A DNA stretch of 64,000 nt from Azolla caroliniana (Eukaryota; Plantae; Polypodiophyta). The stretch is taken from assembly GCA_043228905.1 (NCBI GenBank), contig JBHGNT010000001.1, forward strand, positions 5,704,001 to 5,768,000, in the 5' to 3' direction. The notes under the pieces are model-generated. The model was not told the DNA's origin and made no database searches. It was given only the letters and a program-made list of their open reading frames with translations. Positions 16,192-58,298 of the stretch are shown piece by piece (within the stretch, counting starts at the first letter, position 1; each line of letters starts with the position of its first letter). The position numbers were made by a program, and so were the translations under genes.

Positions 16192-17060
16192 TAGGGATCG
16201 GCAACGGTTCGGTTTAGGCTTAGCCGGTTTGGCCTTATCCAAGCCAAACCAGTTAAGCCTAAACCGTTTTGGGGTTCTCAAACTTGAACCAAACCAAACC
16301 AAACCGGTTCACAAACCGGTGTCATGAAGATTCCGGGCCATAGTGAGAAACCGGGGAATATTGGAAGAATCGGCAGAGTGGACCATGTGCACTCACCCTT
16401 GTACAAATCATGTAAATGATAGGGGCGCCATCATGGCGCCAGACAGTAGTTAGTTCGGGACAGAGGATCCCATGTAATATGGGATTTATCCCACATTGTT
16501 ACGCATCCCTCTCATTGTTCTATAAAAGGAAGGGAGCGCCCTTTGTGAAGGGGTTGCCCATTTTGAGTTAGGAGGGTATACCTTTAGATTTAGGTTAGGT
16601 AGTTTCTTCTTCTTCTTCGTTGTCGTATGGGTCGAGAGTTCGTGTCTGTTTAGGGTTTGTTTCTACTCGGTCTCCTGTGCAAGACCCCGCTCGGCGTGAC
16701 GAGCCCGATAGCTCCCCCGATCTGCGGCTTGCCAGCAGATTGTTGTTGTAACCTAACCTACCTTGGTCCGGCTCGAAGCTGGGGATGTATTCTTTCCCTT
16801 GTAATATACATACTCGTATCTGTGTGTGCATATTGGTGTATTTGGTGGTGTCGGAAGCACAACCCCTTGCTTCTTGTGCATAAGAGTTGGTGTCGCGCGC
16901 ATGCTCTCCCTCTCCTTTGTCTCTCTCTTTGTCTCTCTCGTGTTCGGTTACATCTAGGTCATGTCCGGTGTCAAGTTTCTTGGCATCCCTTTTCTCCCTC
17001 GTCCGAGACCCCTGTGGTCCCGCCCCTTCTACACGCACACGCGTAACAACGCGACATATT

Positions 17061-17078
17061 TGGTGAACCCGACATGAA
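17061..17078 (+). promoter_or_regulatory. Primer-binding site, tRNA-Trp (element B)
   Basis: TGGTGAACCCGACATGAA, complementary with one mismatch to the plant tRNA-Trp 3' end as recalled (...TTCACGTCGGGTTCACCA). Confidence 0.75.
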
Positions 17079-20000
17079 GGGCGGCAAGGAAGAATGGACT
17101 TGGAAGAAAACGACTTTGCACAACTTTTTGTTGAAGCGGCGAGGGAGTTTGGATGAGCAACAACAAGAAGAGAGACGGCGCAGCAAGCTGTCGAATGCGT
17201 GGTCGAAAGAGTCAGCCGTTTCAACGGGGACAATGTCCCATTCTACTTGGAAGAATACAATGCGGAAATGGAGGAGCGAGACGCAGACGAGGCATTGAGG
17301 CTGGAGTTCTTCTGTCGGGTCGTCGTCGTCCGTATGCACGCGGAAGTGAAGGAGCTCCAAGAAGCTCATAGTTCGTGGGAGGCCTTCGAAGAGGCACTCC
17401 TGCAGGCATATGGAGGACGTCGGAAGAGTCGGGGATGACGCGGCTTCGACCAGTAGGTGGCATCAGCGAAGACCTACCGGGGCGCAACGAAGGCGTTCCG
17501 AGAGTTCGAGAGATGGCTTGCTTGGCTCCCGAATCGGGAACAAGGTTTGGTGGGGGCGGACAAAGTCTTGTTGTTCGTTAGGTCGAATGACTGATCGGAA
17601 CGGGAGGCCATCGGGATTGAGCTCGAAGACGATGACGGAGCGAATGGCCTTACGGAGGACTGGTCGAAGGTCGGAAGGGTATGCCAACGGCTAGATGACG
17701 AGCGAGCAGAGAAGGCTAAGACGAAGGCGCGTGACGACGTGCCATCATAGCGGGAAGAGGTCGAACGACAAAGAGAGTTGGCAAGGCTCGGCTTCGGGGC
17801 CAGGATTGCGGAGGCGTACGGAGCTCTCGAGGCAATGCTTGAGGAAGAGGAAAGATCGAGGCCGCGAGCCGACACTGAGGAGACGAACTTGCCCCACGAG
17901 ATGGCAGAAGATCGGTACGACGGTACCACGGGAGAGGGTGCGGAACAAAACGCCCTCTCAGGTTGCGGAGATAGAACGGCCGAGGACAAGGCCGAGGTAC
18001 CGATCGCAGAATCGTAACGTTGGGGCCGGCGGTTTCGGGCACGTCAGCCCGAATCTCCGGACATTAGAGAAGCAAGCCTAGGCGGGGCTTGCACGATCGG
18101 TAAGAAGACGACCACTGACCATGAGGAGCCGGTGGCTACGGACAAGGGCGAAAAACGGACGGGTGATTCTTTGCGTCTTCCCACACTTGCTCTCGAGATG
18201 ATGGCAGTCGGGCCCGAGTGACCACGTGAGTCCCAAGAGGAGGAAGGCGGTGGCGTGAGACCGAGAATCACCGGCGAGACGATACGGGGAAGGAACGAAC
18301 AAGAGCCCTCGGGACTGATTCCGAAGAACTCGGCATTCGGGCCCTTACGCCCATGTGAGACCGAGGAGACGGATGATAGTATCGAGGAGTCCTGGCACAA
18401 TGCCAACGAAGATGGATGGGAAATGGCCCGCCAAAAGGTCGACGAAGAGACCAAGAAACGACCCGACTGGGGACCGAACTACGCAACGCTCCAATTCGGG
18501 TGGAGCGCGATCCGGTCGTGGATTGTTCAATCGAGGCCAGAATCGGCATGAAGGTGCCGATACGGGAGAGGGTGCGGAACAAACCGCCCTCCTTTACATG
18601 GGGAGAAAGATCGACCAGGCGAAGGTTGGGAAATGAAAGGGAAATGATCGAGGGTGCGAAACGAGTCCGGCAGGATCAGTATCAGAGCCGAAACTCCAGA
18701 CATTGGAGAATCAAGCCCAGGCGAGGCTTGATCGATCATAGAGCGGATGCTTTCCATCGAAACCACTAACAGGGTCGGTGGCCCGGATGAGTCGTCGAGA
18801 GTCGTTACGGAATCGGTGTCCCCACATCTTGACCGAAGACTTCGGTAGTTCGACCGGCGTGGCAACGTGAGACCGGAAGAGATGGAAGATGGAGGCGGGA
18901 CCACAACGAGGAGAGCGACGACGAGTCTGGGAGAAGTACAAGGGACGAAGCGGAGAGCGAAGACCGGTCCTATGGGTCACCTCACACCGAATCTAGAGAC
19001 TTCGGCGGTCGGCATCGGGTCCGACGTAAGACCAAGATACTGACAGTGGCGGCAGGAGAACGAGACCCGGCAATCCAGAGAATGACGAACAGGCCCGGAC
19101 GAGAACCGGGCGGAGCGGACTTCCGGATAACCGATCCGGAAGAGGGGAGAGAGCAGGCCTACGAAGAGGCCGGGAACACGGTACGTCGGTACCACGGGAG
19201 AGGGTGTGGAGCGAGCCACCCTCTCGACTTGCGGACAAAGACGACCCAAGATAAGGGTCTGGGATACAATGAGCCCAAGGAGGATCCTTCACACTGGTTC
19301 CATAGACTCCGGCGGTCGGCCCGAGAGCCGGCATGAGACCTAGAGTGACGAATGGTGGCGGCGCGAGGGGACGAAGGCAAAGGACAACAGAAGGGCGGTC
19401 TACGGAGATCCTCACACCGATCCGGCGGTCGGCCCGAGTGCTGGCGTGAGCCCTATAGGAGAGAACGGTGGCGGCAGCTGAACGTGACCAGCAGAAGAGG
19501 CTGACATGGAGGTCGGGACTACGGCGAGAGGAGACGCCAAGGGGGAAGTCCCATGAAGATCCTCACACCGATCCGGCGGTCAGCCCGAGTGTCGAATATG
19601 AGTGTATAATGGCCGTATTCACATTGTCCCTTTGGACAACCCAAGTTTGGGCCATTTCTGTAAATAGCATAAAGGGCAGTTGCCCTAGGATAGTCACTAT
19701 ATAAAGTGACTTTGTAACCTTTAGTGAAGGTTGGTTGTCATTTGTAACTGTTGCTATTGGAATATAACGTTTCCTTTGTGCCTCTCTCTCTCTCTCTCTC
19801 TCTCTGTGTCTATCTTGTTCACGCATACATAGGTTATTCTTCATCACGAATGTTGCTTGCACTTCCGCATTGACGGCCTTGTCCCTAACATTTGGTATTA
19901 GAGCATTGGAGGTTCTTCAACCTGATACCGGCTGTCATCGCACAACACAATATTCTGTTTTCGTTTTCTTTGAAGAACAGAGAAGGGAGAAGAAAAACAA

Positions 20001-20744
20001 AAAGCTCGCATCTCACTGTGTTAAATCACAAATTGGAGTAAGCCAGTCGGTTGTACTCTGTTCCTATGATTGTAACCGCTTGAGGGGAGCTCCTTGAGCA
20101 ACAACCGACCCAATCGTGCTTCATTCGGTTAAACAACCAAATAGGTCACCGGACGCTATTCACTTGCTTGTTGTAACCACCCGCTGCAGATTGGTCTCCT
20201 GGCAACAACCACTTCGTGCTTTAATCGGTTGATTGACATTCGGGAGGATCAGTTGGATCCGTCCCTCTCATAGCTGCAGTCATCCGAAGTTGAATCGGTC
20301 CAAACAATTGGTCTCGTGTAATCGGTATTCGGCATACAATCGAAAGCTAACCGGGCTCACTCCAACTCGGCAACATTCGGGAAGACCAACTGGTTCTGTC
20401 TCTCAAGTTACCGTTGTCGTGAAGAAAACCGTCCCTTAGCGCAATCGGTGCATAGCACGCGTGAACCGGCTCTTCACGCGTGCGCGCCCTTTAAATGTAT
20501 ATAATAGAGAATTAGGTACAAAGGTATGTCCTAGGTAGTTAGATTCGGTAGGTAGGAAGTTAATGAGGGAAACGGCTTCCTTGTGGAAGCTATAAAAGAG
20601 CGGGAGACGCGGGGAGAAGGGGATCGCGCATTGAGGAGGACGAAGTGCTGTCGGACCGTAACCGAACGCTTCTCCTCTGTTCGTTCCCCATCGCTCTTCT
20701 CTGCAGGGTTTTCAGGAGGCTCGCGCTGCTTCGAGGAACGCAGT

Positions 20745-21395
20745 TGTTGCATTACTACGCGCGTGCGTGGAGAAACGAGGCGGGACCACCGGGGTCTTGA
20801 ACCGAAGAGCAGGTGATAGAAGGGGAAAGAGAAGGAGAGAGAGACCCGATCACGTATGAGCAAAGAAACACAGGGGCACGGCCCGTCAACACAGAAGACA
20901 CGAATGGACACAGAGACAGGGAGACATAAATGTCTGTATATTAACGAATAACAAATACAAAACAGAGCACGCGAGCGGTTACAACCGAACAGGCCGGCGA
21001 ACAGATGCCGATGCCTGTTCGTCTGCGCACGAAAAGGAGAAAAGGGTGGAGGTGCTGCTGGAAGCACACGAGCGTTCCTCGAAGCAGCGCGAGCCTCCCG
21101 AAAACCCTGCAGAGAAGAGTGATAGAGAACGAATCTGAGGAGAAGCGTTCGGTTCCGGTCCGACAGCACTTCGTCCTCCTTAATGCGCGATGCTTTCTCC
21201 CTGCGTCTCCCTCTCCTTTATAGCTTCAAGAAGGGAGCCGTCTCCCTCATTTACTTCCTACCTACCGAATCTAACTACCCGGATATGCCTTTGTACTTAA
21301 TTCCCTATTATATACATTAAGGGCGCGCACACGTGAAGAGATGGTTCACGCGCGCTATGCACCGATTGCGCCAAGGGACGGTTTTCTTCACGATA
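20745..21395 (-). mobile_element. Solo LTR of the element-C family, inserted in reverse inside the 5' LTR of C
   Basis: Reverse complement of the C LTR end to end; 4-bp TSD CAGT (20741-20744) / CCGT (21396-21399); the uninterrupted 3' LTR reads GGAACG-CCGT-GTGCTT. Confidence 0.9.
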
Positions 21396-21741
21396 CCGTG
21401 TGCTTCCGGCAGCACCTCCATCCTATCCCCCTTCGTGCGTAGACGAACAGGCATCGGCATCTGTTCGCCGGCCTGTTCGGTTGTAACCGTTCGCGTGCTC
21501 TGTTGTTTATTTGTCATTCGTTAATATACAAACATTTGTGTCTCTCTGTCTCTGTGTCCATTCGTGTCTTCTGCGTTGACGGGTCGTGCCCCCCCCTGTG
21601 TTTCTTTGCTCATACGTAACCGGGCGTCTCTCTCTTTCTCTTTCCCCTTCTAACACCTGCTCTTCGTTTCAAGACCCCAGTGGTCCCGCCTCGTTTCTCC
21701 ACGCACGCGCGTAGTAACGCGACATCTTTGGTGAACCCGAC

Positions 21742-23909
21742 ATGAAACAGGCGGTAGAGGAGCAGAAGATGAGGGGGTCAGATCTTGCAGAGGCCATGGC
21801 TTCGGCCGTGGACCGGATGGTGAGCGCGCGCGAGGGCACCGGCGCCCTTGACAGGGCTATTGAGGCGATCGTCGATACGATCAGCCGGTTCAGTGGAAAG
21901 GATGCCACGAGTTATTTGGCGTCCTACCGGGTGGAGATGTTGATGAGGGATATTCCGGAAGAGAGGTGTCTTGCCGGATTCCCTCGAGTGGCGACGCCGG
22001 ACATCCATGCGGAGGTGCTCGAGGTCCGGGCGGAGAGCCGAACCTGGGAGGAGTTCGAAGGACGGCTCCTGGAGAAATACGGGCTGGATGACGCGCTTCG
22101 ACTTTCGAAGCGGGGCTTCATGGAGTGGGTGGAGTCCCCCAACAAAGGAAGAAATGCGTCGGTACTCCTCCGGGAGTTTGAGGAACGCTTTGCGCGCCTT
22201 TCGGCGCTCGATCGGACCGTTCTGGACACGAGTCGTGTCCTACTGTTTGTCAAATCGGTTGACGAACGGGATCGGGAGCAAGTGGTCTCCTTACTGGAAA
22301 CCGAAGACGGGCTGACGACGGACTGGGCCGCGGTAAAAAGAGTCTGCGGCCGTTTTGACAAACGGCGGGAGTGGGCTGATATAGGGGCGACCGGGGCGGG
22401 TCCTGTCGCATCAAGGAAGCTCGAACCGATACCGCAGGCGCGAAGGGAAGAGACCCGGGAGTGGCTCGAAACCGGTTCGGCTTCGACCGGCGTGGTCAGA
22501 GGCTCGTCTGAGGGAACAACTTTGGAGGAGTTGACACGGGCGGTAAAGGATCTCCAGATCGCCCAGGCTCGGAGGGAAGGCGGTGAATAGGCTCGTGACC
22601 GATGACCTCCAGCAGGAAATAGGTGCATGTGGTGCGACGAGGTCGGCCACATCCGGAAAGACTGCGGGGACTTTGCGGAGGCTTTGAGAAGCCGGGTAGT
22701 GTACCTGTGGGAAGGTCGGGTGCACGCCAGCGATACCCGGAGGGCCCTTAACCGGAACGATGGGCGAGGAGGAATGAAAAGGCTGATGGAAGAGGCGGCG
22801 GCCCGGCACGTGGAGACCATCCACTACTCGGCGTCAGCCGGTATTCAGGTCGGAGGCAGCGAGGCCTGGAAGGAGAGCCAAGCCGGGTTCTGGCCGACGA
22901 TGCTGGAAGGCCTCGCCGGTGCCCGACTAAGGAAAGACGAGGCGGACCGCGCGGAGAAGCGGGTCCAGGAGGTAACCGGGTGGAGTGACCCGGTTGAAGA
23001 AAAGACGGGTTTCGTCGAAGCAGCTTGCCAGAATTACGAGGCTCTGGTAGAAGACAAACAGGTAGGTAAAACTGGAGGGGCCGGACCCTCACAGAGATAC
23101 GAAACCTGATTCAGGCCGAAACGGAACGAGGCCGGTGAGACCAGTGCCCGGGATAACCACAAGAAGGGCGGATGCCGGTTGGGCACAAAGATCGAAAGGA
23201 CCACGGACCTACGAAAGGTCCTGGAAGAACAAATCCTCGACAGCAAGGTGGAACTGTCGTTGCGGGAGGTGCTCGGAATCGCCAAGAAGGAGTTCCACGA
23301 CTCCATCGTAGACTTGGTGAAGAGGAAGAGGCTGTCGACGGAGACAGAACCGGAAAGGCCGGTGGAGGTGCGGATGACGCACATAGAGGACATGGCGCTG
23401 GAAGACGAGTGGGCGGAGAGCCACTATTCGAGGCCACACTGGGCCCGAGTGACCACGGAAACCCTGGTGAAGATCGGAGATGTTCAGGAACCGGTGGTGG
23501 CGCTAGTGGACCACGGTTCGGAAATAAACCTGATGTCCATGGACTTCTACAAGAAGGGGAAATGGCCGATCAACACCAAGCACATGTGGAAGATATGGGC
23601 GGCGACGTGCACCACCGAGGAACTACACGGGGCCTGCCCAAACGTGCGAGTCAAGATCGGCGACGTCGAGATAGACCAACACTTCTTTGTGCAGGAGACG
23701 TCCTCGCACCCGGTCATGCTGGGAGAACCATACTGGGACCAGCACTTCTTTGTGCAGCGCGGATGGCGACCAAGGTACTGGACAACGGGTCGGCTTACGC
23801 GAGGGTCAAGAGTCAGGACGAGCGTCATTCGGTCCAGTTCCTGACAGTGCGACCGAACCACGAGCGAAACCGCGAGTCCCTCGGTGGCGAGAATTGACAT
23901 GATTTTTAG
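21742..23909 (+). pseudogene. gag-protease of element C (stops and frameshift)
   Basis: RFSGKDATSYL capsid-like region, zinc knuckle CMWCDEVGHIRKDC, aspartic protease ALVDHGSEINLM; ends GAT TTT TAG. Confidence 0.85.
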
Positions 23910-26900
23910 AAAGGGCTGTCAAGGCGTGGGGCCGCGATAGTCCGAACACTCCAGGAAAACCCCACAAATGTACGATAGATGCGAAACCGAAGAAACCTTG
24001 TACCATAAGTAGGAAGTTTTGTTTCTCCGACAACGGAGGATGTACGATAGTCGGCGTCGTTGGCCGAGAAAAGACAAGGGCGGAAGAGCGACTTCGGGCG
24101 TGCGGAGTTCTTGGGCACAACGAGGAAATCAACGGAGCCGTGGAGGCGGTCTCCTTTGACGATACCTTGGGAATACTGCGAGAGGTGGTCGGAGAGGGCC
24201 TTAAAGAGGACCGGATGATACCGGTTTGTTCAGAAGAGATGTACGAAGTCATCGCGGACTTCAGTCGGGGGCTCGAGTCGGATCGGACGGCCCGGGTTAA
24301 CACGAAGTACAAGACTGTGGACCGGAAGGTAAGGCCAGTCGCGGCACCCTTACCGGAGGGCAGCGAGTTGCGAATCAAGGGGGTCGTGTCGGACCCCAGT
24401 TTATGAGATCCGGCCTGCATAGGACACACCTTCACCGACAGAACGCTACGGGAGCTCAAAATCGGTGGGGGCGGGTTCCTACTGCCGGCGGAAGAAGACC
24501 GGTTTCGGAGAATGCTCAGAAGGCACGGAAAAGCCTTCGCATTCTCATCGGGAGAGATCGGGTGCGTGGACCCGACAGTCGTGAAGCCAATGTTGATATT
24601 CACGGTACCGCATGTGCCGTGGAATCTCAAACCAATTCCGGTACCGAGAGCTCACATCCCGGAGCTGATGGAGCTGTTGAAGCAGAAAGTCGATATGGGC
24701 ATCCTCGAACCGTCGAGTGCCCCGTACTCGAACCGGTGGTTTACCGTACCGAAGAAGAACGGGACGTTGCGCTTCATTCAAGACCTGCAACCGGTCAACA
24801 GAGTGACCATTCGGAACGCAGGAATCGGACCAACGATAGATGAGTTCGCGGAGGCCTTCGCCGGAAGGTCGATCTACTTGGTCGGTGATCTGTACTCGGG
24901 GTAAGATCAGTTCCAACTAGCCGTAGAGAGCAGAGACATTACGATGATGCGGACTCCTCTCGGCCTAGTGCGGATGTGTACCCTGCCACAAGGAGGGACG
25001 AACTCGGTGGCCCACATGGTGAATGCGATGAACAAGGTGCTGAGGGATTGTATCCTGGACATCACCATGCCATTCTTGGACGACATCCCGATCAAGGGAT
25101 GTCCGGTGGAGGAAAAGGACGAAACGATCGGACCAGACGGGTGCCGGAAATTTGTGGCGACACACATTGACGACTGCGAGAGGGTGCTGCAGAGGCTAGA
25201 GGACGCGAGGCTCACCTTCTCCGGAGAGAAATCGGCCTTCGGGCAATCAGAGATCATGGTCGTCGGACATCTATGCGGACCGTATGGTCGGAAACCGTCT
25301 CCGGCTAAGGTGGAAGCCATCTCTGCAATGAAGCCCGACTGTAAGTCGGTCACGGAGGTACGGAGGTTCTTGGGAGCATACACGTTCTACCACATATGGA
25401 TCCCGCATTACGCCCACGTTGCCGAGCCGCTATACGGGTTGCTGAAAAAGGGGCGAAAATTCGAGTGGCGAGACGAGCATACGGAGTCGGTTCGAAAGAT
25501 GAAGGAGGCTCTTGCTGGAGCTCCGACACTCCGGAAGGCTGCCTACGAGAAAGGCACTCCCATCTACATAACGGTAGATACAAGTCCGACCGGGATCGAA
25601 TGGGTCGTCAACCAAGAAGATGAGGAAGGCATTCGGGTCCCAATCTGGTTCGGCGCGAAGGTCCTCAACGAGCGACAGCGAGGACACACCCAGGCTAAAA
25701 GCGAACTCTGGGGTATCGTTTCGGCGGTAAAGGCCGATAAAGACTATCTGATCGGGACAGAGGTGATTATCGAGACGGACTGCCTGCTGATTCTCGGCAT
25801 GGTTTCCGGATGCGCAACCCCGGACCTGGCAATGCTCTGGTGGATAGCGTACATCAAGTCCTTGAATCCAGAAATACGACACATTTCCGGGAAAGACAAT
25901 GCCATGGCCGACATGCTTTCGAGGGCGCGATTCGAGGACGAGGGCGGAATGGTTTCAGAGGACGAGGAAGTCGGTGTGGACTTCTTCGAGGCGGCTTACG
26001 TAACAACCGAGGGGGGGAGCACTCCGGCGCTTAACGATTTTAACGAGAGCAAGTACGACGGGGAGTGGCTGCAGATTGGGGGATTCTTAAGGACAATGAC
26101 GCCGGATGCGTCATGGACAAAGGACGAGGCCAACCGGATCCGGAAGAAAGCGTACCAATTCTTTCTCCGGGACGGATACTTGTGGAAGCACCCGAAGAAG
26201 AGAAACGACATCCTACTCCGAGTAGTGGCGATGGAGGAGGAACAGGAGGAGTTGCTGAAGGCCTACCACGACAGCCCCTGGGCTGGACACCGTGGGACGT
26301 GGGCCACGTTCGAGAAACTAAAGGGGAAGTACTGGTGGCCGGGACTATACCGGGACGTGCATCGGTTCGTGACAACTTGTGAGAGTTGTTAGATACACTC
26401 CATAGTCTGACATCGGGACGAGCTTCACCCTACATACCCTCTGGCCATCCACTTCAAATGGATGGTAGATTTGGTGACGATGCCGATGGGCGTAGGGCAG
26501 AAGCGATATCTGGTGCTGGCCCGGGAGGACCTGACGAACCAGGTGGAAGGCCGAGCCCTGCAGAACAAAACGACCGCGACCGTGTGTCGGTTCCTGATCG
26601 AGGACGTGATATGCCGGTACGGGTGCGTTGGGAAGATCGTGGCTGACCGTGGGGAGTTGGATGCTGAAGAGGCCGAGGAGCTGTTCGACCGGTTAGGGGT
26701 CAAGCTCTCGCTCACCACAACGTACAATCCGGAGGCGAACGGGAAGGTGGAGCGCGGACACGAACCGATCGTCAAAGCACTAGTCCGGGCGTGCGGAGGC
26801 CAGGTCGGGAACTGGCCACGACTGTTACCTTATGCCTTGTGGGCGGACCGGACAACGCACAGTTCGGTAACCGGGTTCATGCCGTCGGAGCTCATGTTCG

Positions 26901-27430
26901 GACAGAAGCCGATCATGCCGATGGAACGGACAATCTCCTCTTGGGCGATAGTGGACTGGAGAGGCGAGATGAGCCAGGAAGAATTGCTAGCGGCGCGTAT
27001 ACGGCAGCTCGAGCGGAGGCCAGAGGACGTGGAACGAGCGGCGGAGAGACTTCGGACGGCGAGGATGAGGAACAAAGCCCGGTTAGACCAAACGCACCAG
27101 CTCCGACCAAAGAAAATCGAGGAAGGCGATTGGGTGCTAGTCTACGACATTAGCCTCGACAACCAGCACCGGGCAACACGGAAGTTTGCAAGGCGGTGGT
27201 TCGGGCCTTACGTGGTAACGAGTGCCAACGACAACGGGACGTATCACCTGGCAGAACTCGACGGTGCGAGGATGGTGATACCGGTAGCAGGGAAGCGGAT
27301 CAAAGCGTTCAAGAAGCGCCACGACGGCGAACCGGATCTAAGAGGCCTGGACAACGACGACGAACAGTCCGAAACGGAGGACGAACTAATGGACGAGGAA
27401 CCGGAACCTGGACCGGTTTTCTCCAACTAG
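23904..27430 (+). pseudogene. pol (RT-RNase H-integrase) of element C, in the -1 frame relative to gag-PR, with several in-frame stops
   Basis: RFIQDLQPVN, LPQGGTNS, PFLDDIPIKG (RT); ITVDTS..ELWG..ETDC (RNase H); H-x5-H..CESC, VDLV..ADRGE..VERGH (integrase); WFGPY; no chromodomain. Confidence 0.9.
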
Positions 27431-29645
27431 AACCCAATTTTGGCGCATACCGGTGGATGCGCGGTTAGGTGGGGGCGGATGTCGTGCAGAAAACCGTCCC
27501 TTAGCGCAATCGGTGCATAGCACGCGTGAATAGGCTCTTCACGCGTGTGCGCCCTTTAAATGTATATAATAGAGAATTAGGTACAAAGGTATGTCCTAGG
27601 TAGTTAGATTCGGTAGGTAGGAAGTTAATGAGGGAAATGGCTCCCTTCTGGAAGCTATAAAAGAGAGGGAGACGCGGGGAGAAGGGGATCGCGCATTGAG
27701 GAGGACGAAGTGCTGTCGGACCGTAACCGAACGCTTCTCCTCTGTTCGTTCCCCATCGCTCTTCTCTGCAGGGTTTTCGGGAGGCTCGCGCTGCTTCGAG
27801 GAACGCCGTGTGCTTCCGACAGCACCTCCATCCTATCCCCCTTCGTGCGTAGACGAACAGGCATCGACATCTGTTCGCCGGCCTGTTTGGTTGTAACCGT
27901 TCGCGTGCTCTGTTGTTTATTTGTCATTCGTTAATATACAAACATTTGTGTCTCTCTGTCTCTGTGTCCATTCGTGTCTTCTGCGTTGATTGGCCGTGCC
28001 CCCCCCTGTGTTTCTTTGCTCATACATAACCGGGCGTCTCTCTCTTTCTCTTTCCCCTTCTAACACCTGCTCTTCGGTTCAAGATCTCGGTGGTCCCGCC
28101 TCGTTTCTCCACGCACGCGCGTAGTAACGCGACACTGTAGTCACTCCGAGCAAGTTCAGCAACAAGTATCTGAAACCAAACCGACTCGGGTTCAAAACCG
28201 ACTAGAACGACATCGGGTGAGCCGACCGGCTGCACCCCACTAAGGTTCCTAGTCAACTCCGAACTGAGTCTTACCAACCGAAACCGAAGCAGATGGCATC
28301 AACATCCGGATCATCGGAGATGAGTCTAAGGAGGTTCAATGGTTCGAACTTCAACTTTTGGAAGGAACAAATGCAGGACTATCTCATAGTCAAGGGTCAG
28401 ATAGATCCGATTGAGAATGAAAATCCTCGAGAAGCATACAAGGCAAACGAGTGGCTAAAGCTGAACAGAATCGTCCGCGCCACGATTCGGATGCACTTGT
28501 CGGAGTCAATGTACTTCACAATGCAATTATGCACGACAACGTTTGAACTTTGGAAAACATTGTCGAAAACTATGAAAAGAAGGTTGCCGCAACGAAGATG
28601 TATCTGATCCGGCGCCTCTACAACTTGCGGATGAAAGAATTCGATTCCGTTTAGGCACACCTCAACGAGTACGAAAGCATAAGCTCCCAAATCTCGTCTT
28701 AGGGGACGACAATCGAGGATGAACTCAGAGCAATGACACTCATGGGTAGTCTCCCCTCTTCATGGGAAACTTGCTTACAACTGTGTGCAATGCTTCAACA
28801 GTTGCCGTTAAGTACTCCAAAGTCACAAGCGCAATCCAGACTGAAGCAGCTCGGAGAAAGTCTTTCGCCAAAGACTCGGCAGATGAAGCTTACGTAGTAC
28901 AAGGTTCGACCGACCGATCGAACAACCGGGGAAGAAGTTCTTCCCGACCGCCGAACAATCAGCGAAGCCAGAGCAAGTCCCGGGACAACCCAATCTGCAA
29001 CTATTGCAAGAAACTGGGACACATCAAAGCTGACTACCGGGCACTCAAAGCAAAAACCGACAAAGCTCAGAGAGCGGATCAGAAGAGTAGTTGGCATGAG
29101 GAAGTCAACTACATCGGCTCTTCAGCCGAAATTTTGACGACCAACCCGAATATATGTTCATAGAGAACCTAATCGAATCAGAAGTTCTGCTTACGACTGA
29201 GGAATCGAGCACATGGCTTCTTGACTCGAGCGCATCGTATCATGTGACACCTCACCGATCTCAGTTTCGGCAATACTCGGACCGGCACTCCGACTCAGTT
29301 CAAGTCGGAAACTCCCAACACTGTGCTATAATCGGAATCAGCACCGTAGAGCTCAACCTTCCGGGTGGCTCTACGCTCGTACTACACAACGTTTGACACA
29401 TTCCTGAGCTCTCAAGACCCCTGATCTCAGTCGGACACCTTGACGAAGCCGGCATCCGTGCCGGATTCTCATTAGGAGGGTGGTCACTCCACAAAGGGAA
29501 CCTCCTGCTTGCTTGAGGACCAAAGGTACATTCCTTGTATCCTTTATATGTCACACTCAATGAGGGTGACTTATTTTTGGTAGATATCCCCGTGTCATCG
29601 TTATGGCATTGACGACTTGGACACCTCCGTAAGGCCGGCATAACG

Positions 29646-32600
29646 TGTTGGAGACAAAGGCCGTCAATGCGGAAGATCAGATAACATTCGATTTGTTGCG
29701 GAGTACCTGCGTATGACAGTTTCTGAGATCGTGCAGAGAGAGAGAGAGAGAGAGAGGAGGCACAAAAGACTTTCTATTCAATAGAATCAAAATAATACAA
29801 CCAACCTTACAAAGAGGTTACAAGGTCACTTTATATAGTGACCGACTTAGGGCAAATACCATTTATGCTAATTACACAAATGGCCCAAACTTGAGCTATA
29901 CAAAGGGATAGTGTGAATACGTCCATTATACACTTGTATTCGACACTCCCCCGTAATGGGCGTATACATGGGTTATCTAAGATTATAGGTATAAAGCTAG
30001 GTTCTCGGACATATCAGTTTTGTTTGAGTCGGCAGGGTCCGAAGGCAGAAGACCGGACTGGTCGGGTCGGAAGAGTTGAAGCCGATCATTAAGGAACTGA
30101 TGTCGGTTGTCCGAAGCCATCCTGCGCTGTGTCCGGCTCTAACCGGACTGGTTTGTCGTTACGCCCATCTGATGCCGAAGGGACCGAAAGCGGTCTACCG
30201 AAAGACACTTGGTCATTCCATCTGCGACATTGTCGGTTGTGGATATTTTCTCTAGACCGATTTTCCCTGAAATGACGCAGTCCCGAACGAAGTGATATCG
30301 AACGTCGATATGTTTGGAGGCGTTGTGGTGAACCGGATTTCTCGACAAGGCAACAACACCTTGACTGTCGCTATAGACAACTGGAGCCGAGTCATGGTCG
30401 ACTTGTCGAAACGTGTGCGCCAGCCGGCCGAGCCACAAAGCTTCTTTTGCAGCGTCGGACGCAGCTACATATTCTGCTTCGGTCGTTGAGGTTGCTGTGC
30501 ACTCCTGAAGTTTCGACTTCCATGAAATTGCTCCATTGCCGAATTTGAAGCAGTATCCGGTTGTTGATTTCCGACTGTCTATACAGCCGGCGAAGTCCGA
30601 GTCGGTGTAACCGACAACGCCCGAGGTCGAGTTCGGACCGAAAAGAATGCCGTGGTCTTTTGTGCCAGCCAGATATTTGAACACATGCTTGACTGCGTTC
30701 CAATGCGATCGGCCAGGATTGTGCATAAATCTGCTAACGACTCCTACGGCATGAGAGATATCAGGCCGTGTCGCGACCATCAGGTACATAAGGGAGCTGA
30801 CTGCCGGTGCATACGGTACCGACTTCATATCTTCCCCCTCCGGACCGGATGTCGGGCAGTCTCGCTGAGAGAGCCGAAGATTCATGGGGAGCGGGGTTGA
30901 AGCAGATTTGGCTGATTGCATGTTGAAGCGTTCCAAGACACGTCCGATATAGTCGGTCTGAGACAAAAAAAGACGTCGTTTATCGCGATGCCGACTAATC
31001 TTCATGCCAAGTATGTGTCGTGCCGGACCGAGGTCCTTCATGGCAAACTTCAACCGCAGTTGCCGAATGAGATCGGCAAGTTCGCCCGCGTGGCGACCAG
31101 AAATTAGCATGTCGTCCACGTAGATGATGAGGAAGATGGGTGATCCATCTTGAGCTGTGTTGGTAAAAAGACAATGGTCCTCATCGCTTTTTGAGAAGCC
31201 GATCGATTGGATGAAGTCGTCGAACTTCTTGTACCATTGTCGCGGTGCCTGTTTGAGGCCGTATAGACTCCTCCTGAGTCGGCAGACTAGATGTTCTTGG
31301 CCAGTTGCCACGAAGCCTTTTGGCTGCTCCATATAAATTTCCTCTTCAAGATCACCATGGAGGAAGGCTGTTTTGACATCTAGCTGAATCAGCTCCAAGT
31401 TGTCGGCTGCCACTACGCCGAGTAGAAAACGAAGGGTTGTCATTTTCACCACTGGTGAAAAAATCTCGTCGAAGTCGACGCCATATTCTTGTCGGAAGCC
31501 CTTCGCAACTAATCTGGCCTTGTACTTTGGGGTGGTCGAATCAGACGTCTCTTTTAGTCGATAAACCCACTTGCAAGGAAGAGCACGTCGATTCTTAGGT
31601 AATTCGACCAGATCCCAAGTCTTGTTTGCCCGAATGGAGGGCATTTCCGACTCCATCGCCAGATGCCAGGTGGCTGAATCGACAGATGTCGATGCTTCTT
31701 CGTAAGACGTCGGTTCGCCGGCGTCGGTGAAGAAAATTCCAGGAGAATACCTCTCCGGAGGTTGCGACAGTCTCTCGGATCGTCGAGGTATGATTGGACT
31801 GGTCGCATCGGGTATCGAGGTCGGATGGTCCGAAAGCGAATCATTCGGCTGTGCCGAGTCGGAGTTGTCCGAGTCGGTGGTGTAAGGTTCAGCTACCCGT
31901 GAAGCTGACCGTGTGTTAAGAGCGGGGCCTTCTTGAAGGGTCGGCACATCGGAAAATGTTACCCTTCGGACTTCGATCGGTTTTTCGACTGATGGATTCA
32001 TAGCCGACTCGTTGAACACAACGTCCGAACTTCGAACGATTTGTCTGCGTTCGGGGTCCCAGAGTCGGTATCCCATTTCGCCGTCGGATCCATATCCAAG
32101 GAAAATGCATTTCCTGGACCGAGGTGCAAGTTTTCGGCGATCATCTTTCGGAATAAGGGCGTACGCCTCGCATCCGAAGATCCTCAGCTTGTCGTAATTC
32201 GGCTTACTGCCGATCCATAGTTCCTGAGGAATTTGAAGTCCTAGAGGTCTACTTGGCGACATATTAATTATGTGTACTGCCGTGAGTAGAGCCTCTGCCC
32301 AGAAGCCATCCGACAGTCCGGAGTGTTGGAGCATGGAAACTATCCGTTCTTGGATTGTCCGATTCATGCGTTCTGCAATCCCGTTTTGCTCCGGACTGTG
32401 TGGTGCCGTAAATTCACGTCGGATGCCGCGTTGTCAGCAGAATTTGACGAATTCTTCTGATTTGAACTCTCCCCCATTGTCGGTCCGAAAGCATTTCAGT
32501 TTTCGGTCAGTTTGATTTTCTACCATCGCGAGCCAATCGGAGAAGATCGAGAAGACACGATCTTTGGTGCGAATTGGATAAGCCCACACCTTTCGAGTCG

Positions 32601-35167
32601 AATCGTCAATAAAACTGACGAAGTAAGAGGCACCTCCGAGTGACTGATGCGGCATTGGGCCACAGACGTCCGAGTGGACTAAATCGAGAGGTCTCGTTTC
32701 TCTTGGTGCTGATGTCGGGTGTGATGCAGCTGCTTGTTTGCCATACTGGCAATGTTCGCAGAATTGATGGTCCGAGAAGGAGAGTTTAGGGATGTATCCG
32801 GCTCTAGATAGGTGCGTAATGCCGGCCTTGCTGAGGTGTCCTAATCTTCTGTGCCATAGTGATGACACAGGAATATCCACCAAAAACAGGTTACCCTCTC
32901 TGAGCGTAACATGTAACGGATACAATGAGTGTATCTTGGGTCCTCTAGCAAGCAGGAGGTTCCCCCTGTGGAGTGTCCACCCTCCCGAAGAAAAACCGGC
33001 ACGAATGCCGTCTTCATTTAGTTGTCCGACTGAGATCAATGGCCTTGAGAGCTCGGGTACATGTCGGACATTGTGAAGTACAAGTGTAGAGCCACCTGCA
33101 AGGTTGAGCTCTACTGTGCCGATTCCAATGATGTCACAGTGTTGCGAGTTGCCGACTCGAACTGAGTCGGAGTGACGGATCGTATATTGCCGAAATTGGG
33201 ATCGATGAGGAGTCACGTGAAACGACGCGCCCGAATCTAAGAGCCATGTGCTCGATTCTTCAGTCGTGAGCAGAACTTCTGATCCGACTGGATTTTCGAT
33301 CGATAGTATATTCGGGTCGTTTGGTAGCACATCAGCTGAGAAGCTGACGTAATTGATCTCCTCATGCCGGCCACTCTTCTTGTCTGATTTCTGAGACTTG
33401 TCGTTCTTGTTCTTGAGTGCGCGGCAGTCGGCTTTGATGTGTCCGGGTTTCTTGCAATAGTTGCAGATTCGATTGTCCCGTGACTGGCTCCGTCTTCGTT
33501 GCTTGTTCGGCTGCCGTGAGGAATCTCTTCCTCGTATGTTCGATCGGTCTGTCGAACCTTGTACTACATAAGCGTCGTCTGTTGAGTCTTTGGCGAAAGA
33601 CTTTCTCCGAGCTGCTTCGGTCAGGATTGCGCTCGTGACTTCGGAGTATTTAACAGCCGTGATTGACGCGTTGCACACGGTTGTGACGAAAGTTTCCCAT
33701 GATGAGGGAAGGCTGCTCATGAGTATCATTGCTCTGAGTTCATCCTCGATTGCCGTCCCCTGAGATGAGATTTGGGAGCTTATGCTTTCGTACTCATTTA
33801 GATGTGCTTGAACCGAATCGGATTCTTTCATTCGCAAGTTGTAGAGGCGCCGAATAAGAAACATCTTCGTTGCAGCGACCTTCTTTTCGTAGGTGTCTGA
33901 CAGTGTTTTCCACAGTTCGAATGTTGTCGTACACGATTGCACCGTAAAGTATACCGATTCCGAAAGGTGCATCCGAATCGTGGCGCGGACGATTCTGTCC
34001 AGCTTCTGCCACTCAATTGGTTTGTATCCTTCTGGAGGTTCTTCATTTTCGATGGGATCGATTTGCCCCTTGACTATGAGATAGTCCTGCATTTGCTCCT
34101 TCCAGAAGTTGAAGTTCGATCCATCGAACTTTCGTAGACTCATTTCTGACGAGCCGGATGTTGATGCCATCAAATTTGGTTTCGGTTGACGAAGCTCGGT
34201 TCGGAGTTGACTACGAACCTTGTTGGAGTGCAGCCGGTTGGCTCACCCGATATCGTTCTAGTCGGATTTGAACCCGAGTCGGTGCGGCTTCGGATATATG
34301 TATTGTTGAACTTGCTCGAATTGACTCCGGTAACTTGAGGGACAGAACCGACTGGTCTTCCCGAATGTTGCCGAGTCGGAGTGAGCCCGGTTCGCTTCCG
34401 AATATGTATGCCAAATACCGATTATTGAAACCGATTGTCTGGACCGATTCTGCTTCGGGTGACTGCAGCGACGAGAGAGACGGATCCAACTGATCCTCCC
34501 GAATGTCGATCAGCCGGATGAAGCACGAATTTGGGTTGTTGTCTTGAGACCGATCTGCACCGAGTGGTTACAATGAGCGGCGAGCAGCGTTTGATGACCT
34601 CTTCGGATGCCGTTTAACCGAGTGGAGCACGATCGTGTCAATGTTGCACAAGGGGATTTCACCTCGAGCGGTTACGATCATAAGGAACAGAGTACAAACG
34701 GCTGGCTTACTCCAAGCGAAGATGATCTAACGCGATGAGATGCAAGCCTCGTTTTTCTTCTTCTTCTCTCTTCTTCGAATGACGCAAGAAACCGAATGCT
34801 GTGCAGGCTGAGACGACGGCCGACAGCGGGTTGAAGGACCGAATACTGTGCAGGCTCTGATACCAAATGTTGGAGACAAAGGCCGTCAATGCGGAAGATC
34901 AGATAACATTCGATTCGTTGCGGAGTACCTGCGTATGACAGTTTCTGAGATCGTGCACAGAGAGAGAGAGAGAGAGAGGAGGCACAAAAGACTTTCTATT
35001 CAATAGAATCAAAATAATACAACCAACCTTACAAAGAGGTTACAAGGTCACTTTATATAGTGACCGACTTAGGGCAAATACCATTTATGCTAATTACACA
35101 AATGGCCCAAACTTGAGCTATACAAAGGGATAGTGTGAATACGTCCATTATACACTTGTATTCGACA
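29646..35167 (-). mobile_element. Young full-length Ty1/copia element F (Tnt1/Tork-like, same family as D); LTRs 34868-35167 and 29646-29945
   Basis: 300-bp LTRs differing at about 2 positions; perfect TSD TAACG; PBS TGGTATCAGAGCC at 34865-34853; PPT GGGGGAG at 29952-29946. Confidence 0.96.
30139..34170 (-). CDS. Copia Gag-Pol polyprotein of element F (~1343 codons) with one in-frame TGA at 32436-32434
   Basis: ORFs 34173-32434 and 32367-30139 are in the same frame. CNYCKKPGHIKADC, LLDSGASFH, WHRRLGH, HSDVCGP..RTDNGGEF, YKARLVAKGF, YVDDML, YTDSDFAG..KHIDVRYH. Confidence 0.92.
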
Positions 35168-36828
35168 TAACGCACCTATCCAAAGCCGGTTACATCCGAG
35201 CATTGCCAGTACGGAAAATAGGTAGCCGTATCACATCCGACATCAGCACCAAGAGAATTGAGTCCCCTCGATTTGGTCCACTCAGACGTCTGTGGCCCGA
35301 TGCCACATCAGTCTCTCGGCGGTGCTTCGTACTTCGTCAGTTTTATTGACGACTCGACTCGGAAGGTGTGGGCTTACCCCATCAGAACCAAAGATCGGGT
35401 GTTCATGTCTCCGAACCGACAATGGAGGAGAATTCAAGTCTGAAGAACTCATCAAATTCTGCCGGGAACGTGGCATTCGACATGAATATACATCACCCTA
35501 TAGTCCGGAGCAGAACGGAATTGCTGAACCCATGAATCAGACGATTGAAGAACGCGTAGTATCCATGCTCTAACACTCCGGACTGTCGGATGGCTTCTGG
35601 GCGAAGGCTCTACTTATGGCAGTACACATAATAAATATGTCCGCAAGTAGACCTCTAGGACTTCAAATACCTTAGGAAATATGGACCGGCAGTAAGCCGA
35701 ATTATGACAAACTGAGGATCTTTGGTTGCGAGGTGTATGCTCTCATACCGAAAGACGACCGCCGGAAACTTGAACCAAGATCACGGAAATATGTTTTTCT
35801 TGGATATGGACTGGACGGCGAGATCAGTTACTGACTCTGGGACCCCGAGCACAGACAAATCATTTGAAGTTCGGATGTTGTGTTCAACGAGTCAGCTATG
35901 CATAAAATGGTCGAAAAGGCCTATTGAAGTCCGAAGGGTAATATTTTCCGAAGTGCCAACCCTTCATGATGACCCATCCCACAACACGAGATCGGTGTCA
36001 CGGGTAACCGACAACTCTCGCACCGAATCCACCGATTCGGCACAACCGAATGGCTTGGCTCCCGACCATCCGACATCGACACCCGGTGCGACCAGTCCAC
36101 TCATACCTCGCAGATCTGAGAGACTGTCGCAACCTCCGAAGAGGTACTCTCCAGTAATTTTTTTTACCGACGCCGGTGAACCGACATCTTACGAAGAAGC
36201 ATCGACATCTGCCGATTCAGCCACATGGCATCTGGCTATGGAGTCGGAAATGCACTCCATTCGGGCAAACAAGACTTGGGACTTGGTCGAATTACCGAAG
36301 AATCGACGTGCTCTTCCATGTAAGTGGGTCTATCGACTAAAAGAGACGTCCGACTCGACCAACCCAAAGTACAAGGCCAGATTAGTTGCGAAGGGATTTA
36401 GACAAGAATATGGCGTCGACTTCGACGAAATCTTTTCACTTGTGGTGAAAATGACGACCCTCCGTTTTATGCTCAGCGTCGTGGCCGCCGACAACTTGGA
36501 GTTGATTCAGCTAGATGTAAAAACGACATTCCTCCATGGTGACCTATAGGAGGAAATCTATATGGAGCAGCCGAAAGGCTTTGTGGCATCCGGCCAGGAA
36601 CATCTAGTCTGCCGACTCAAGAAGAGTCTCTACGGCTTGAAACAGGCACCTTGACAGTGGTACAAGAAGTTTGACAACTTCATCCAATCGGTCGGCTTTT
36701 CAAAGAGCGACGAGGACCACTGTCTCTTTACCAAAACAGCTCAAGACGGGTCTCCCATCTTCCTCATCATCTACGTGGACGACATGCTACTCTCCGGTCG
36801 GCATGCTAGAGAGCTCATCGAACTGGTT

Positions 36829-52950: not shown

Positions 52951-52965
52951 GCTCCCTTGCCGCAC

Positions 52966-56201: not shown

Positions 56202-58244
56202 ATGGAAAATCAACCGGAGGCTAGCAACATGATGATGATGTTCGAGCGCATGCTACAAGAACAACGCACGATGTCGAAGATAGCGACATCAGTGGAGCGG
56301 CTCGTGCAACGAAACAGGCAATTCAACGGGAAAGACGTGTCGCGGTATCTTCGGGACTACAAGGCGGAGATGCTACGGTGCGGAATATTGGAAGGACTGC
56401 AAGTGACGTCCTTCTACCGGGTGGCGACCGACGGGCTTCAAGCAAGCATCCATAGGCTACGACAACAAAATCCGACATGGGAGGCGTTTGAAGAAGAGCT
56501 AAAGAGGACGTTCGCCATTGAGGATTCCTCCAAGGCGACGCGAAGGGGATTCGAAGATTGGGTGGAGACGCCGGACAAGGGATTGAAGGTCGTTGACGTG
56601 TTTTCGGCATTTGAAAGCCGGTTCGGGAGGTTGTCAGCGAGAGATCAAGCTATCCTCGTACCAGACAAGGTGATCATGTTCTTGCGAGCCGTGGACGTTC
56701 GGGACTGGAAAGATCTCGGAGTGCTCTTGGAAGACACGACCACGGAGAGTGGCCTCACCGAAACATGGGAAAGCGTGCGGGATATCGTCGTGCGATACAC
56801 GAAGAGGGGGCAATGGCTTGCCAACGAGGAAAAGAGGGTTTCGGAACCAATTCCGAAACCGAGAACCGGATTGGAAGACCATCAACCGAGGGCTCGGGAG
56901 ACTACAACCGAGAAGGGGATTGATGGACCTACGGTGGAGCAACTATTGAAGGAGATGGAGAATCTGAAGATCGCGATGGTGAAGAAGTCGGATGACCGCC
57001 CCACAAGCTCCAAGTATACGGACCGACGGTGCATATGGTGCGATAGCGCCGAACACGATCGGAGGGATTGCGACGAGCATAAGGAGGCACTACGGCGGGA
57101 TCTCATCTACTACGAGGGAAACTAGATTCATTCGATGGACTCTCGGAAGCCACTCCGACCGAACTTCCGGAAAGGCGGCATGAAGAAGGTGCTCGAGGAG
57201 GAATTGGCGGCAAGAAGCAACTATGCGACAACTACGGGAATATGTGTCGGGGAGTCATCGAGAGCAAAGACGTCTTTTTGGCCGGAAGTTCTAGAAAACA
57301 CCGAGAAAACCGACTCCAACGAGATCCGAAGCACCGCGGAAGGCGTCCGGGAAGCTACGGGATGGGAGTGCCCTATCGACAAGAATAGCGTATACGCCCT
57401 GTGTCAATTGCATAAGGTGTATGTGGACGAGAAACGACGACGCACGGAGGATGCGGGCGGGCCATCGAAGCTACCGGAAAGCTGGAACTCCGGAGGTAAG
57501 GGAAAAGAAAAGGCGACTCCGGCATTCAAGCTCGCCTCGGACATAGAACAACAAACCGACTTGAAAAGAGTGTTCGAGGAAAGGATCTTGGATAGCCGGG
57601 TAGATTTCTCGCTTCGGGAGCTACTCGGAATAGCAAAGAAGGAGTTCCACGATCTTCTCGTGGATCTCGTGAAGCGAAAAAGACAAAGTACGGAGGAAAA
57701 TGCTCCAAGGGTGAATGCGAACACCGTTTTAATGAACGACACTGAAGTGGAGGACGAAATTCCGAACTCCCACTATACAAGGCCACATTGGGCACACGCG
57801 ACTAAGGAGACTCCGGTCCGAATCGGCAACATCAAAGAACCCGTGCTAGCATTGATTGATCACGGATCGGAGATCAACTTGATGTCCAAGGAGTTCTACC
57901 GGAAGGGGAAGTGGCCTATTAACACCAATCATGGATGGAAGATTCGGGCGGCCACCAAAGCAACGAAAGATCTATTTGCGGCTTGTCCGGATGTGACGGT
58001 GAAGATCGGGGATGTCGAGATCGACCAAAATTTCTTCGTGCAAGATGAGGTTTCACATTCCGTCATCCTCGGCCAACCCTTTATCACGGCATCACGGATG
58101 GAGACGAAGGTGCTCGATAGCGGTGCGGCTTTTGCGCGAATTCAGAGCCAAAACGGTGGGAAATCCGTCCAATTCCTAACGGTGCCGGCAAATCACGAAA
58201 GGAACAAGAGGGAACTCTTGTCCCAAGTGAGAATGGATTTTTAA
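56202..58244 (+). pseudogene. gag-protease of element H (one in-frame TAG at 57123-57125)
   Basis: QFNGKDVSRYL, CIWCDSAEHDRRDC, ALIDHGSEINLM, VILGQPF; ends ATG GAT TTT TAA. Confidence 0.87.
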
Positions 58245-58298
58245 AGTGGACTGTTGCGGAGTGGGGAAGTGATAGTCCGAGAAGCCCTGATACCCCAC
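58235..58298 (+). promoter_or_regulatory. Predicted -1 programmed ribosomal frameshift signal (G_GAU_UUU, 6-nt spacer, H-type pseudoknot)
   Basis: The -1 frame is open from the site into RT; stems GGACTGTTGC/GTGATAGTCC and GTGGGG/CCCCAC; equivalent structure at 23900-23965. Confidence 0.75.

What the first reader, a model, noticed from the sequence alone, without database searches (positions are those of the whole stretch)
23900..23965. The same frameshift architecture is conserved in the divergent element C
Seen: C also ends Gag-PR with GAT TTT TAG and its -1 frame is open into RT. After the same 6-nt spacer, GGGCTGTC (23913-23920) can pair with GATAGTCC (23936-23943) and GTGGGG (23926-23931) with CCCCAC (23960-23965). 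Loop sequences and downstream codons differ from H while the paired segments are retained. Inference: two independent copies with the same break make random decay unlikely. Caveat: the heptamer here is U_GAU_UUU, a weaker tandem-slip site; both copies share U_UUU followed by a stop.
Basis: partly seen in the sequence, partly recalled or inferred. Interest (0 to 1): 0.7.

Follow-up and report, generated by a model that had tools for sequence, protein, structure and literature searches.

The report
Retrotransposon frameshift switch, with −2 offshoot
A large family of jumping genes in this genome, likely a moss, keeps a slippery sequence and a paired RNA fold between its protease and reverse-transcriptase genes, which likely makes some ribosomes step back one base to build the enzymes; one sister family has shortened the spacing and likely steps back two bases instead.

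Summary
The signal is real, but element C is a decayed copy of it. C belongs to a Phygy-like Ty3/gypsy LTR-retrotransposon clade (tRNA-Trp primer site, NCGN target duplication, no chromodomain) in which Gag-protease and RT-RNaseH-integrase are separate ORFs. Pol lies in the −1 frame in 135 of 145 scorable loci. The family heptamer is G_GAU_UUU (27 of 30 C-family copies); U_GAU_UUU is peculiar to this copy, which also has an in-frame TGA at 23895. Six bases downstream sits a fixed 31-nt stem-loop. It pairs in 263 of 272 cells across 34 families (165 expected from the peptide) and has compensatory changes on 9 branches (2.2 expected). A second stem (pseudoknot) is supported more weakly. The peptide-only refutation fails. 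Best reading: programmed −1 ribosomal frameshifting between protease and RT (0.88, not assayed). A young sister family (106 genome matches, also in metagenomes) has AG_GUU_UUU, a 5-nt spacer, the same fold and pol in the +1/−2 frame. It is likely a natural pseudoknot-driven −2 shift (0.55). My nine answered paper searches found neither described for this clade.

The parts
20415..21724 (+). 5' LTR of element C, split by an inverted solo LTR of a relative (20745-21393)
   Evidence: self-blastn, 97% to the 3' LTR
21729..21741 (+). primer-binding site complementary to the 3' end of tRNA-Trp
   Evidence: 4 of 4 tested genome matches are tRNA-Trp(CCA) genes
21718..23909 (+). gag-protease ORF (DUF4100 + aspartyl protease), broken in this copy by stops and a frame break near 23730
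23895..23897 (+). premature in-frame TGA two codons before the shift site (3 of 30 C-family loci have it)
23900..23906 (+). slippery heptamer; U_GAU_UUU in this copy, G_GAU_UUU in 27 of 30 C-family loci
23907..23912 (+). 6-nt spacer containing the gag-pro stop TAG (23907-09)
23913..23920 (+). stem 1, 5' arm (start of the fixed 31-nt module 23913-23943)
23926..23931 (+). stem 2, 5' arm, inside the stem-1 loop
23936..23943 (+). stem 1, 3' arm
23960..23965 (+). stem 2, 3' arm (closes the predicted pseudoknot)
23903..27430 (+). pol in the -1 frame: ~130-codon linker, RT, RNase H, integrase; 4 internal stops in this copy; no chromodomain found
27467..27479 (+). polypurine tract
27480..28134 (+). 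3' LTR; flanks CCGT / CTGT, a likely decayed NCGN target-site duplication
58235..58298 (+). same signal in element H: GGATTTT 58235-41, spacer 58242-47 with TAA, stem 1 58248-55/58271-78, stem 2 58261-66/58293-98

Best explanation
Element C is a broken copy of a Phygy-like Ty3/gypsy LTR retrotransposon whose family has Gag-protease and RT-RNaseH-integrase in two frames, and likely joins them by programmed -1 ribosomal frameshifting at G_GAU_UUU, likely stimulated by a conserved stem 6 nt downstream that is predicted to close into a pseudoknot. Shown: the two ORFs, the -1 offset, the heptamer, the fixed 6-nt spacer, and selection for stem-1 pairing beyond the peptide. Inferred: most ribosomes stop at the end of Gag-PR. 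A minority pause when stem 1 reaches the mRNA entry channel, with GAU in the P site and UUU in the A site; the tRNAs re-pair on GGA and UUU and continue into pol. The products would be abundant Gag-PR and scarce Gag-PR-RT-RH-IN, so protease is made at Gag level and only RT, RNase H and integrase are rationed. A nested sister family likely converted this into a -2 shift, by one heptamer change (AG_GUU_UUU) and a spacer one base shorter.
For: Pol is in -1 in 135 of 145 loci with an RT hit (170 examined, 25 without a hit; 7 in +1, 3 in 0). 36 of 59 scorable homologous Gag-PR tails end in DF-stop (120 proteins listed). The base before GAU is G in 34 of 34 family representatives across 12 different amino acids (14 expected); heptamer variants GGAUUUC, GGGUUUU and GGUUUUC keep the A-site re-pairing. 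MAFFT aligns heptamer, spacer and module without internal gaps, and RNAalifold finds the same 8-bp stem unprompted. Stem 1: 263 of 272 cells paired against 165 +/- 6.5 expected; slid registers 0.25-0.43 against 0.97. 7 of 9 pairs have two-sided changes, 0 of 500 shuffles reach four measures and 9 of 500 the fifth. On the protein tree, 9 co-change branches against 2.2 +/- 1.4 (0 of 150 simulations). Stem 2: own loop-arm pairing -12.5 against -10.4 +/- 0.35 when arms are swapped between families (0 of 20000) and -5.6 in 510 control windows. The linker is stop-free in the pol frame in 30 of 32 representatives and in 0 of 32 in either other frame. Young two-ORF copies exist with about 99-100% LTR identity. 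G_GAU_UUU is a known plant-virus shift site (PEMV passage, PMC5009743), and 5-9 nt is the usual spacer (PMC7618472 passage).
Against: There is no direct evidence of translation: no reporter, ribosome profiling or peptide. The poly(A) RNA runs laid had no reads across either junction, so splicing was not excluded by data. Stem 2 is short, mostly GGGG/CCCC, varies in register, and its test is not tree-aware; the median rank of the own pairing among swaps is only 0.41. Single-sequence folding puts an alternative small hairpin in the loop of C. One of 6 divergent pairs (L002-L098) shows no synonymous dip, and the module is only 20 codons. Representatives were filtered for a heptamer-like site and preferred for an open pol frame (15 of 215 loci and 4 of 38 clusters dropped, two of them with A at heptamer position 1), which inflates the and 66 counts. 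11 of 120 longer RT homologs were flagged as fused with Gag/PR, all Riccia gene models; the 6 with a readable junction skip variable parts of it. These are likely invented introns, but this was not checked on DNA.
Confidence: 0.88

Rival explanations
1. Ogre-like splicing: an intron removes the Gag-PR stop and part of the linker, and the structure regulates splicing or packaging.
For: Ogre joins GAG-PROT to RT-RH-INT by a partly spliced intron (PMC6317226 section 13). Riccia gene models fuse the ORFs across the junction, three at the same point. CAG|GT in the -2 family resembles a donor site.
Against: The pol frame is open from the heptamer on in 30 of 32 representatives, and the linker has dN below dS in all pairs, so it looks translated rather than intronic. 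Splicing does not explain the G at heptamer position 1 or the fixed 6-nt spacer. No GT..AG joint across the junction appears in the laid contigs, but there is no RNA coverage there.
Confidence: 0.05
2. Frameshifting is real but driven by stem 1 alone plus the slow stop codon; stem 2 is incidental.
For: Only stem 1 is recovered by RNAalifold and by tree-aware tests. A nearby stop matters in PEMV (PMC5009743 passage). Stem-2 arms are low-complexity.
Against: Distant families change both stem-2 arms together (GCGAGA/TCTCGC, CAAGG/CCTTG, GAGGGT/ACCCTC, GCAGGGA/TCCTTGC), and the own pairing beats all control windows in 23 of 34. Five families have no adjacent stop. This is a sub-variant of the best explanation and its probability is counted inside it.
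Confidence: 0.2
3. Pol is made by reinitiation or internal entry, and the structure is a cis element for packaging, dimerisation or reverse transcription.
For: Structured cis elements are common in retroelement RNA (own knowledge); not tested.
Against: The first Met of the pol frame is scattered from codon 2 to 109. This does not explain the slippery heptamer, the strict -1 offset or the fixed spacing.
Confidence: 0.05
4. Random decay, or conservation explained by the encoded peptide.
For: The window copy is heavily decayed.
Against: The same offset occurs in 135 of 145 loci and in young copies with near-identical LTRs. The peptide-based expectation is exceeded by 98 cells.
Confidence: 0.01

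Closest known systems
Phygy lineage, non-chromovirus Ty3/gypsy (Neumann et al. 2019, PMC6317226; passages, section 13 and Additional file 5 read)
   Same: 4-bp NCGN target duplication, tRNA-Trp primer site, no chromodomain or extra RNase H, coding region filling the interior; Physcomitrium homologs found.
   Different: [quoted passage not shown] Elements here are 6.8-8.0 kb against 7.7-10.0 kb; relatives also occur in Riccia and Adiantum.
Ogre and Retand (Tat clade) GAG-PROT / RT-RH-INT split (PMC6317226 Additional file 5)
   Same: Break placed between protease and RT.
   Different: Those use a spacer/intron or a single in-frame stop and carry aRH; here it is a frame offset with heptamer and stem.
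Retroviral pro-pol -1 frameshift with pseudoknot, e.g. HTLV-1 (PMC7075266, search listing only) and MMTV (recalled)
   Same: -1 shift between protease and RT, with a heptamer and an H-type-like stimulator.
   Different: Those also shift between gag and pro (recalled); here gag and pro share one ORF, in a plant retrotransposon.
[quoted passage not shown]
   Same: Identical heptamer with a stop close behind, read by plant ribosomes.
   Different: RNA-virus replicase context; no homology implied.
Arterivirus nsp2TF -2/-1 frameshift at AG_GUU_UUU / GG_GUU_UUU (PMC7618472 and PMC4937337, passages)
   Same: The sister family has the same octamer, pol in the -2 frame, and an immediate stop in the -1 frame in the main subfamily.
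   Different: The arterivirus shift is driven by a protein complex on a C-rich motif about 10 nt away, with no RNA structure; here a conserved stem sits 5 nt away.

Membership tests
Ty3/gypsy LTR retrotransposon | LTRs, PBS, PPT and order PR-RT-RH-IN | tested here: met
Phygy lineage | 4-bp TSD with NCGN preference | tested here: met
   16 of 21 parsed elements have identical 4-bp TSDs, all 16 NCGN; 6 of 27 LTR-bearing stretches were not parsed
Phygy lineage | PBS complementary to tRNA-Trp | tested here: met
   (4 of 4 tested are tRNA-Trp)
Phygy lineage | no chromodomain, no aRH | tested here: met
   Pfam on 3 intact Pol proteins: none found
Phygy lineage | RT-RH-INT phylogeny with REXdb Phygy sequences (the primary criterion) | not testable with these tools
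   the paper's sequence file is too large to read; only Physcomitrium Gag-PR homologs were seen
Phygy lineage | size 7.7-10.0 kb | tested here: inconclusive
   6.8-8.0 kb
Canonical -1 programmed ribosomal frameshift signal | downstream ORF in the -1 frame, open from the shift site | tested here: met
   135 of 145 loci; 30 of 32 stop-free; not open to the RT core in the window copy
Canonical -1 programmed ribosomal frameshift signal | slippery heptamer in frame | tested here: met
   G_GAU_UUU, a non-perfect XXX form with PEMV precedent; the window copy deviates
Canonical -1 programmed ribosomal frameshift signal | 5-9 nt spacer to a stimulatory structure with covariation | tested here: met
   6 nt
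H-type pseudoknot stimulator | loop of stem 1 pairs with a downstream arm, with covariation | tested here: inconclusive
   supported by swap and window controls but not tree-aware; the loop between stems is 4 nt in C
Canonical -1 programmed ribosomal frameshift signal | measured transframe product | not testable with these tools
   needs a reporter or proteomics
-2 programmed frameshift (sister family) | A-site re-pairing in -2 and pol in the +1/-2 frame | tested here: met
   AG_GUU_UUU; 33 of 46 loci with an RT hit
-2 programmed frameshift (sister family) | direction shown to be -2 rather than +1 | not testable with these tools
   needs junction peptide sequencing

The most novel reading that the evidence does not exclude
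A non-seed-plant retrotransposon clade rations RT/integrase by a pseudoknot-driven -1 frameshift placed after the protease, and one recently active branch has re-tuned the same pseudoknot into a natural -2 frameshifter. It did so by extending the U-run (G_GAU_UUU to AG_GUU_UUU, the arterivirus octamer) and deleting one spacer base. That would be an evolutionary confirmation of the spacer-length (mRNA tension) rule and, as far as my searches reach, an RNA-structure-driven -2 shift that an element depends on.
Probability: 0.55. Interest if true: 0.85.

Novelty: new variant of a known kind. Interest (0 to 1): 0.7.

Why it matters
A 2016 review, summarising a 2003 survey, names only two kinds of plant LTR element with separate gag and pol frames, both +1 (PMC5009743 passage). 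The 2019 plant classification leaves Phygy's ORF layout undetermined. A clade-wide -1 signal, in thousands of copies here and with the same Gag-PR ending in moss, liverwort and fern homologs, fills that gap and explains why gene finders break or mis-splice these elements. It puts the regulated step after the protease, which is unusual for retrotransposons. The sister family offers a natural paired experiment (same stem, 6 vs 5 nt, -1 vs -2) for a rule so far shown mainly with engineered spacers (PMC3458567), and it is testable with a ~90-nt reporter insert.

Tried and rejected
Viral-contig scan: no relatives. Rfam on the junction: two matches far below the gathering score, chance. No RNA holder listed in the run search; laid poly(A) runs X6, X7, X8 have no reads over either junction, so nothing is concluded on expression or splicing. 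mis-read minus-strand loci and one search used a wrong-frame query; both are superseded. G_GAU_UUU with a 5-nt spacer: 51 matches vs 12 control. Of 10 inspected, 4 were single-base-deleted copies of -1 families, 3 were a repeat with no PR/RT on that strand and 3 were unrelated; no second -2 family. GGTTTTY with a 6-nt spacer: 27 vs 15 control; 4 of 10 inspected are in the clade, 3 with RT in -1. Stop-codon readthrough rejected because pol is out of frame. An antizyme-like +1 shift at the stop of the -2 family rejected on geometry, because the stem begins inside the stop codon (inference). Transcriptional slippage thought unlikely on a 5-T run (own knowledge, not tested). Gao et al. 2003 (RNA 9:1422) is not held and is known only through the 2016 review. 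Literature searches showed no paper on this clade's frameshift; DUF4100 gave 0 papers; subscription journals are not covered. Neumann's Additional files 1 and 3 were unreadable and might annotate individual Phygy ORFs. Earlier-findings look-ups gave nothing relevant.
Full report
Observation. Heptamer TGATTTT 23900-06, spacer 23907-12, stem 1 23913-20/23936-43 (8 of 8), stem 2 23926-31/23960-65 (6 of 6). But C is a dead copy. Its Gag-PR frame stops at TGA 23895-97, two codons before GAT TTT TAG, and has a frame break near 23730. Its -1 frame stops at 24404, before the RT core.

The element. C spans 20415-28134, with LTRs 97% alike and the 5' LTR split by an inverted solo LTR. It carries DUF4100/protease, then RT, RNase H and integrase. 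The window lies in a 523-Mb eukaryotic genome. Named homologs come from Physcomitrium, Riccia and Adiantum, so the host is likely a bryophyte (inference). The primer site matches tRNA-Trp genes of the genome (64 pattern matches, 4 of 4 tested are tRNA-Trp). 16 of 21 parsed relatives have a 4-bp duplication, all NCGN. Three intact Pol proteins show no chromodomain. These are the Phygy features in Neumann 2019, Additional file 5, which leaves Phygy's ORF layout undetermined. The phylogenetic criterion could not be tested.

Frame and heptamer. Among 170 loci (30 C-family, 30 H-family, 80 metagenomic, 30 further genome loci), 145 had an RT hit. Pol is in -1 in 135, in +1 in 7 and in 0 in 3. 36 of 59 scorable homologous proteins end in DF-stop. 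The heptamer + 6 nt + stem start occurs 2717 times in the genome against 3 for the reversed control. To avoid counting clones I clustered 200 of 215 loci on protease DNA (15 dropped as truncated, shifted or without a heptamer-like site) and kept 34 of 38 clusters, each represented by a real sequence (median protease identity 65%). C's and H's families fall in separate parts of the protein tree. The first heptamer base, a third codon position, is G in 34 of 34 across 12 amino acids, against 14 expected. Two dropped truncated loci have A there. Five families place the stop 21 nt later yet keep the 6-nt spacer.

Structure. Anchored on the heptamer, the next 6 + 31 nt align without internal gaps, and RNAalifold finds the same 8-bp stem. 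Pairing is 263 of 272 cells, against 165 +/- 6.5 computed from the Pol peptide and codon usage. In the 183 cells where synonymous choice matters it is 179 against 81 (cells treated as independent). Seven of nine pairs show two-sided changes. On the tree there are 9 co-change branches against 2.2 +/- 1.4 in 150 simulations. Synonymous divergence falls in the module in 5 of 6 divergent pairs (0.15-0.37 against 0.5-0.9 in the flanks; one pair shows no dip), while amino-acid identity there is lower than in protease. Stem 2 is weaker. Own arms pair better than swapped arms (-12.5 vs -10.4 +/- 0.35, 0 of 20000 permutations) and than 510 control windows (-5.6), with clear double changes in distant families. 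But most families share GGGG/CCCC, the register varies and the test ignores ancestry. Single-sequence folds are only modestly stable (z -1.67 for C, -0.87 for H), and Rfam has no match.

Mechanism. Shown: two ORFs, the offset, the heptamer, the spacing, and selection on pairing. The linker between junction and RT is stop-free in the pol frame in 30 of 32 representatives (which were preferred for this) and in none in the other frames, and it has no conserved start codon. Inferred: tandem -1 slippage of tRNA-Asp and tRNA-Phe from GAU UUU to GGA UUU while the ribosome is held by the stem, giving much Gag-PR and little Gag-PR-Pol. G_GAU_UUU is a known plant-virus site and the spacing is canonical. 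Splicing as in Ogre is the main rival. Riccia gene models bridge the junction with variable deletions, and the RNA runs laid had no junction coverage, so it is unlikely on sequence grounds but not excluded by data.

The -2 offshoot. Metagenomic loci L113 and L117 had pol in the +1/-2 frame, open from the junction, behind CAG GTT TTT and a 5-nt spacer, with the same 31-nt module. The genome holds 106 matches to that form against 0 control. In 50 fetched loci (one place fetched twice), 46 had an RT hit: 33 are in +1/-2, 9 in 0 and 4 in -1, the latter mostly indel-damaged. Of 16 copies chosen for an open linker, 13 had an LTR pair, 11 of these 99.4-100% identical, and 6 had exactly two long ORFs of about 739 and 1164-1182 codons. 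So the arrangement has transposed recently. RT is under purifying selection between subfamilies (dN 0.075, dS 1.0). The group is monophyletic (100/100) and sits among -1 families on a midpoint-rooted tree. Contigs of two other runs cross the junction without gaps. AG_GUU_UUU is the arterivirus -2/-1 site, and in the main subfamily the -1 frame meets a stop at once, as in that virus. Lin et al. 2012 found -2 optimal at spacers 1-2 nt shorter than -1 with stem-loops and pseudoknots (abstract and passages). Against: P-site re-pairing on AGG is poor, and the same paper lost its -2 product when the first heptamer base was changed. A +1 slip of tRNA-Val from GUU to UUU would reach the same frame. 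Only two subfamilies of one clade are known, and one family uses G_GUU_UUC with 6 nt in -1. I put -2 at 0.55, +1 at about 0.25 and other routes at 0.2.

Novelty. Frameshifting with a 3' structure is a known kind. Its use between protease and RT in a plant Ty3/gypsy lineage, and a -1 to -2 switch on one conserved stem, were not found in nine answered searches. The 2003 survey could not be read and is known only from a review; subscription papers were not searched. Papers seen: PMC6317226 (passages, section 13, Additional file 5); PMC5009743, PMC4937337, PMC7618472, PMC7466625, PMC11963269 (passages); PMC3458567 (abstract and passages); PMC7075266 (listing only). Verdict: real, a new variant of a known kind, interest 0.7.

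Noticed in passing
G000 loci L171-L236; metagenome loci L113, L117: Sister family with AG_GUU_UUU, a 5-nt spacer, the same stem and pol in the +1/-2 frame; young two-ORF copies; candidate natural -2 frameshift.
   Followed up: yes
window 20745-21393: Inverted solo LTR of a relative (about 89-90% identical) inserted inside C's own 5' LTR.
   Followed up: partly
window 48996-53529 (minus), also about 16990-19600 and 59751-63608: LTR elements with the same tRNA-Trp primer site (17061, 52983, 60273) and a Gag-like start. The 48996-53529 element (LTRs 98% alike) has a 1033-codon low-complexity ORF with no Pfam match and no protease or RT match; possibly non-autonomous partners of this clade.
   Followed up: partly
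window 29646-35167 (minus): Young copia element (LTRs 99%) with one in-frame stop at 32434-36 inside integrase; a related broken copia lies at about 35200-36800.
   Followed up: no
G000:C8:17796786-17823370 and C16:4989496-5105657: Tandem clusters of the tRNA-Trp 3' motif (about 1.2-kb spacing on C8); 64 matches genome-wide.
   Followed up: no
L132, L135, L136: Natural heptamer variants G_GUU_UUC and G_GGU_UUU with the 6-nt spacer and pol in -1.
   Followed up: partly
proteins P0162, P0185, P0193, P0204, P0222, P0229: Riccia gene models fuse Gag-PR and Pol while skipping variable parts of the junction; likely annotation artefacts of the frameshift.
   Followed up: partly
window 58121-59848: Element H is cut at about 59750 by another LTR element and lacks integrase here.
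   Followed up: no
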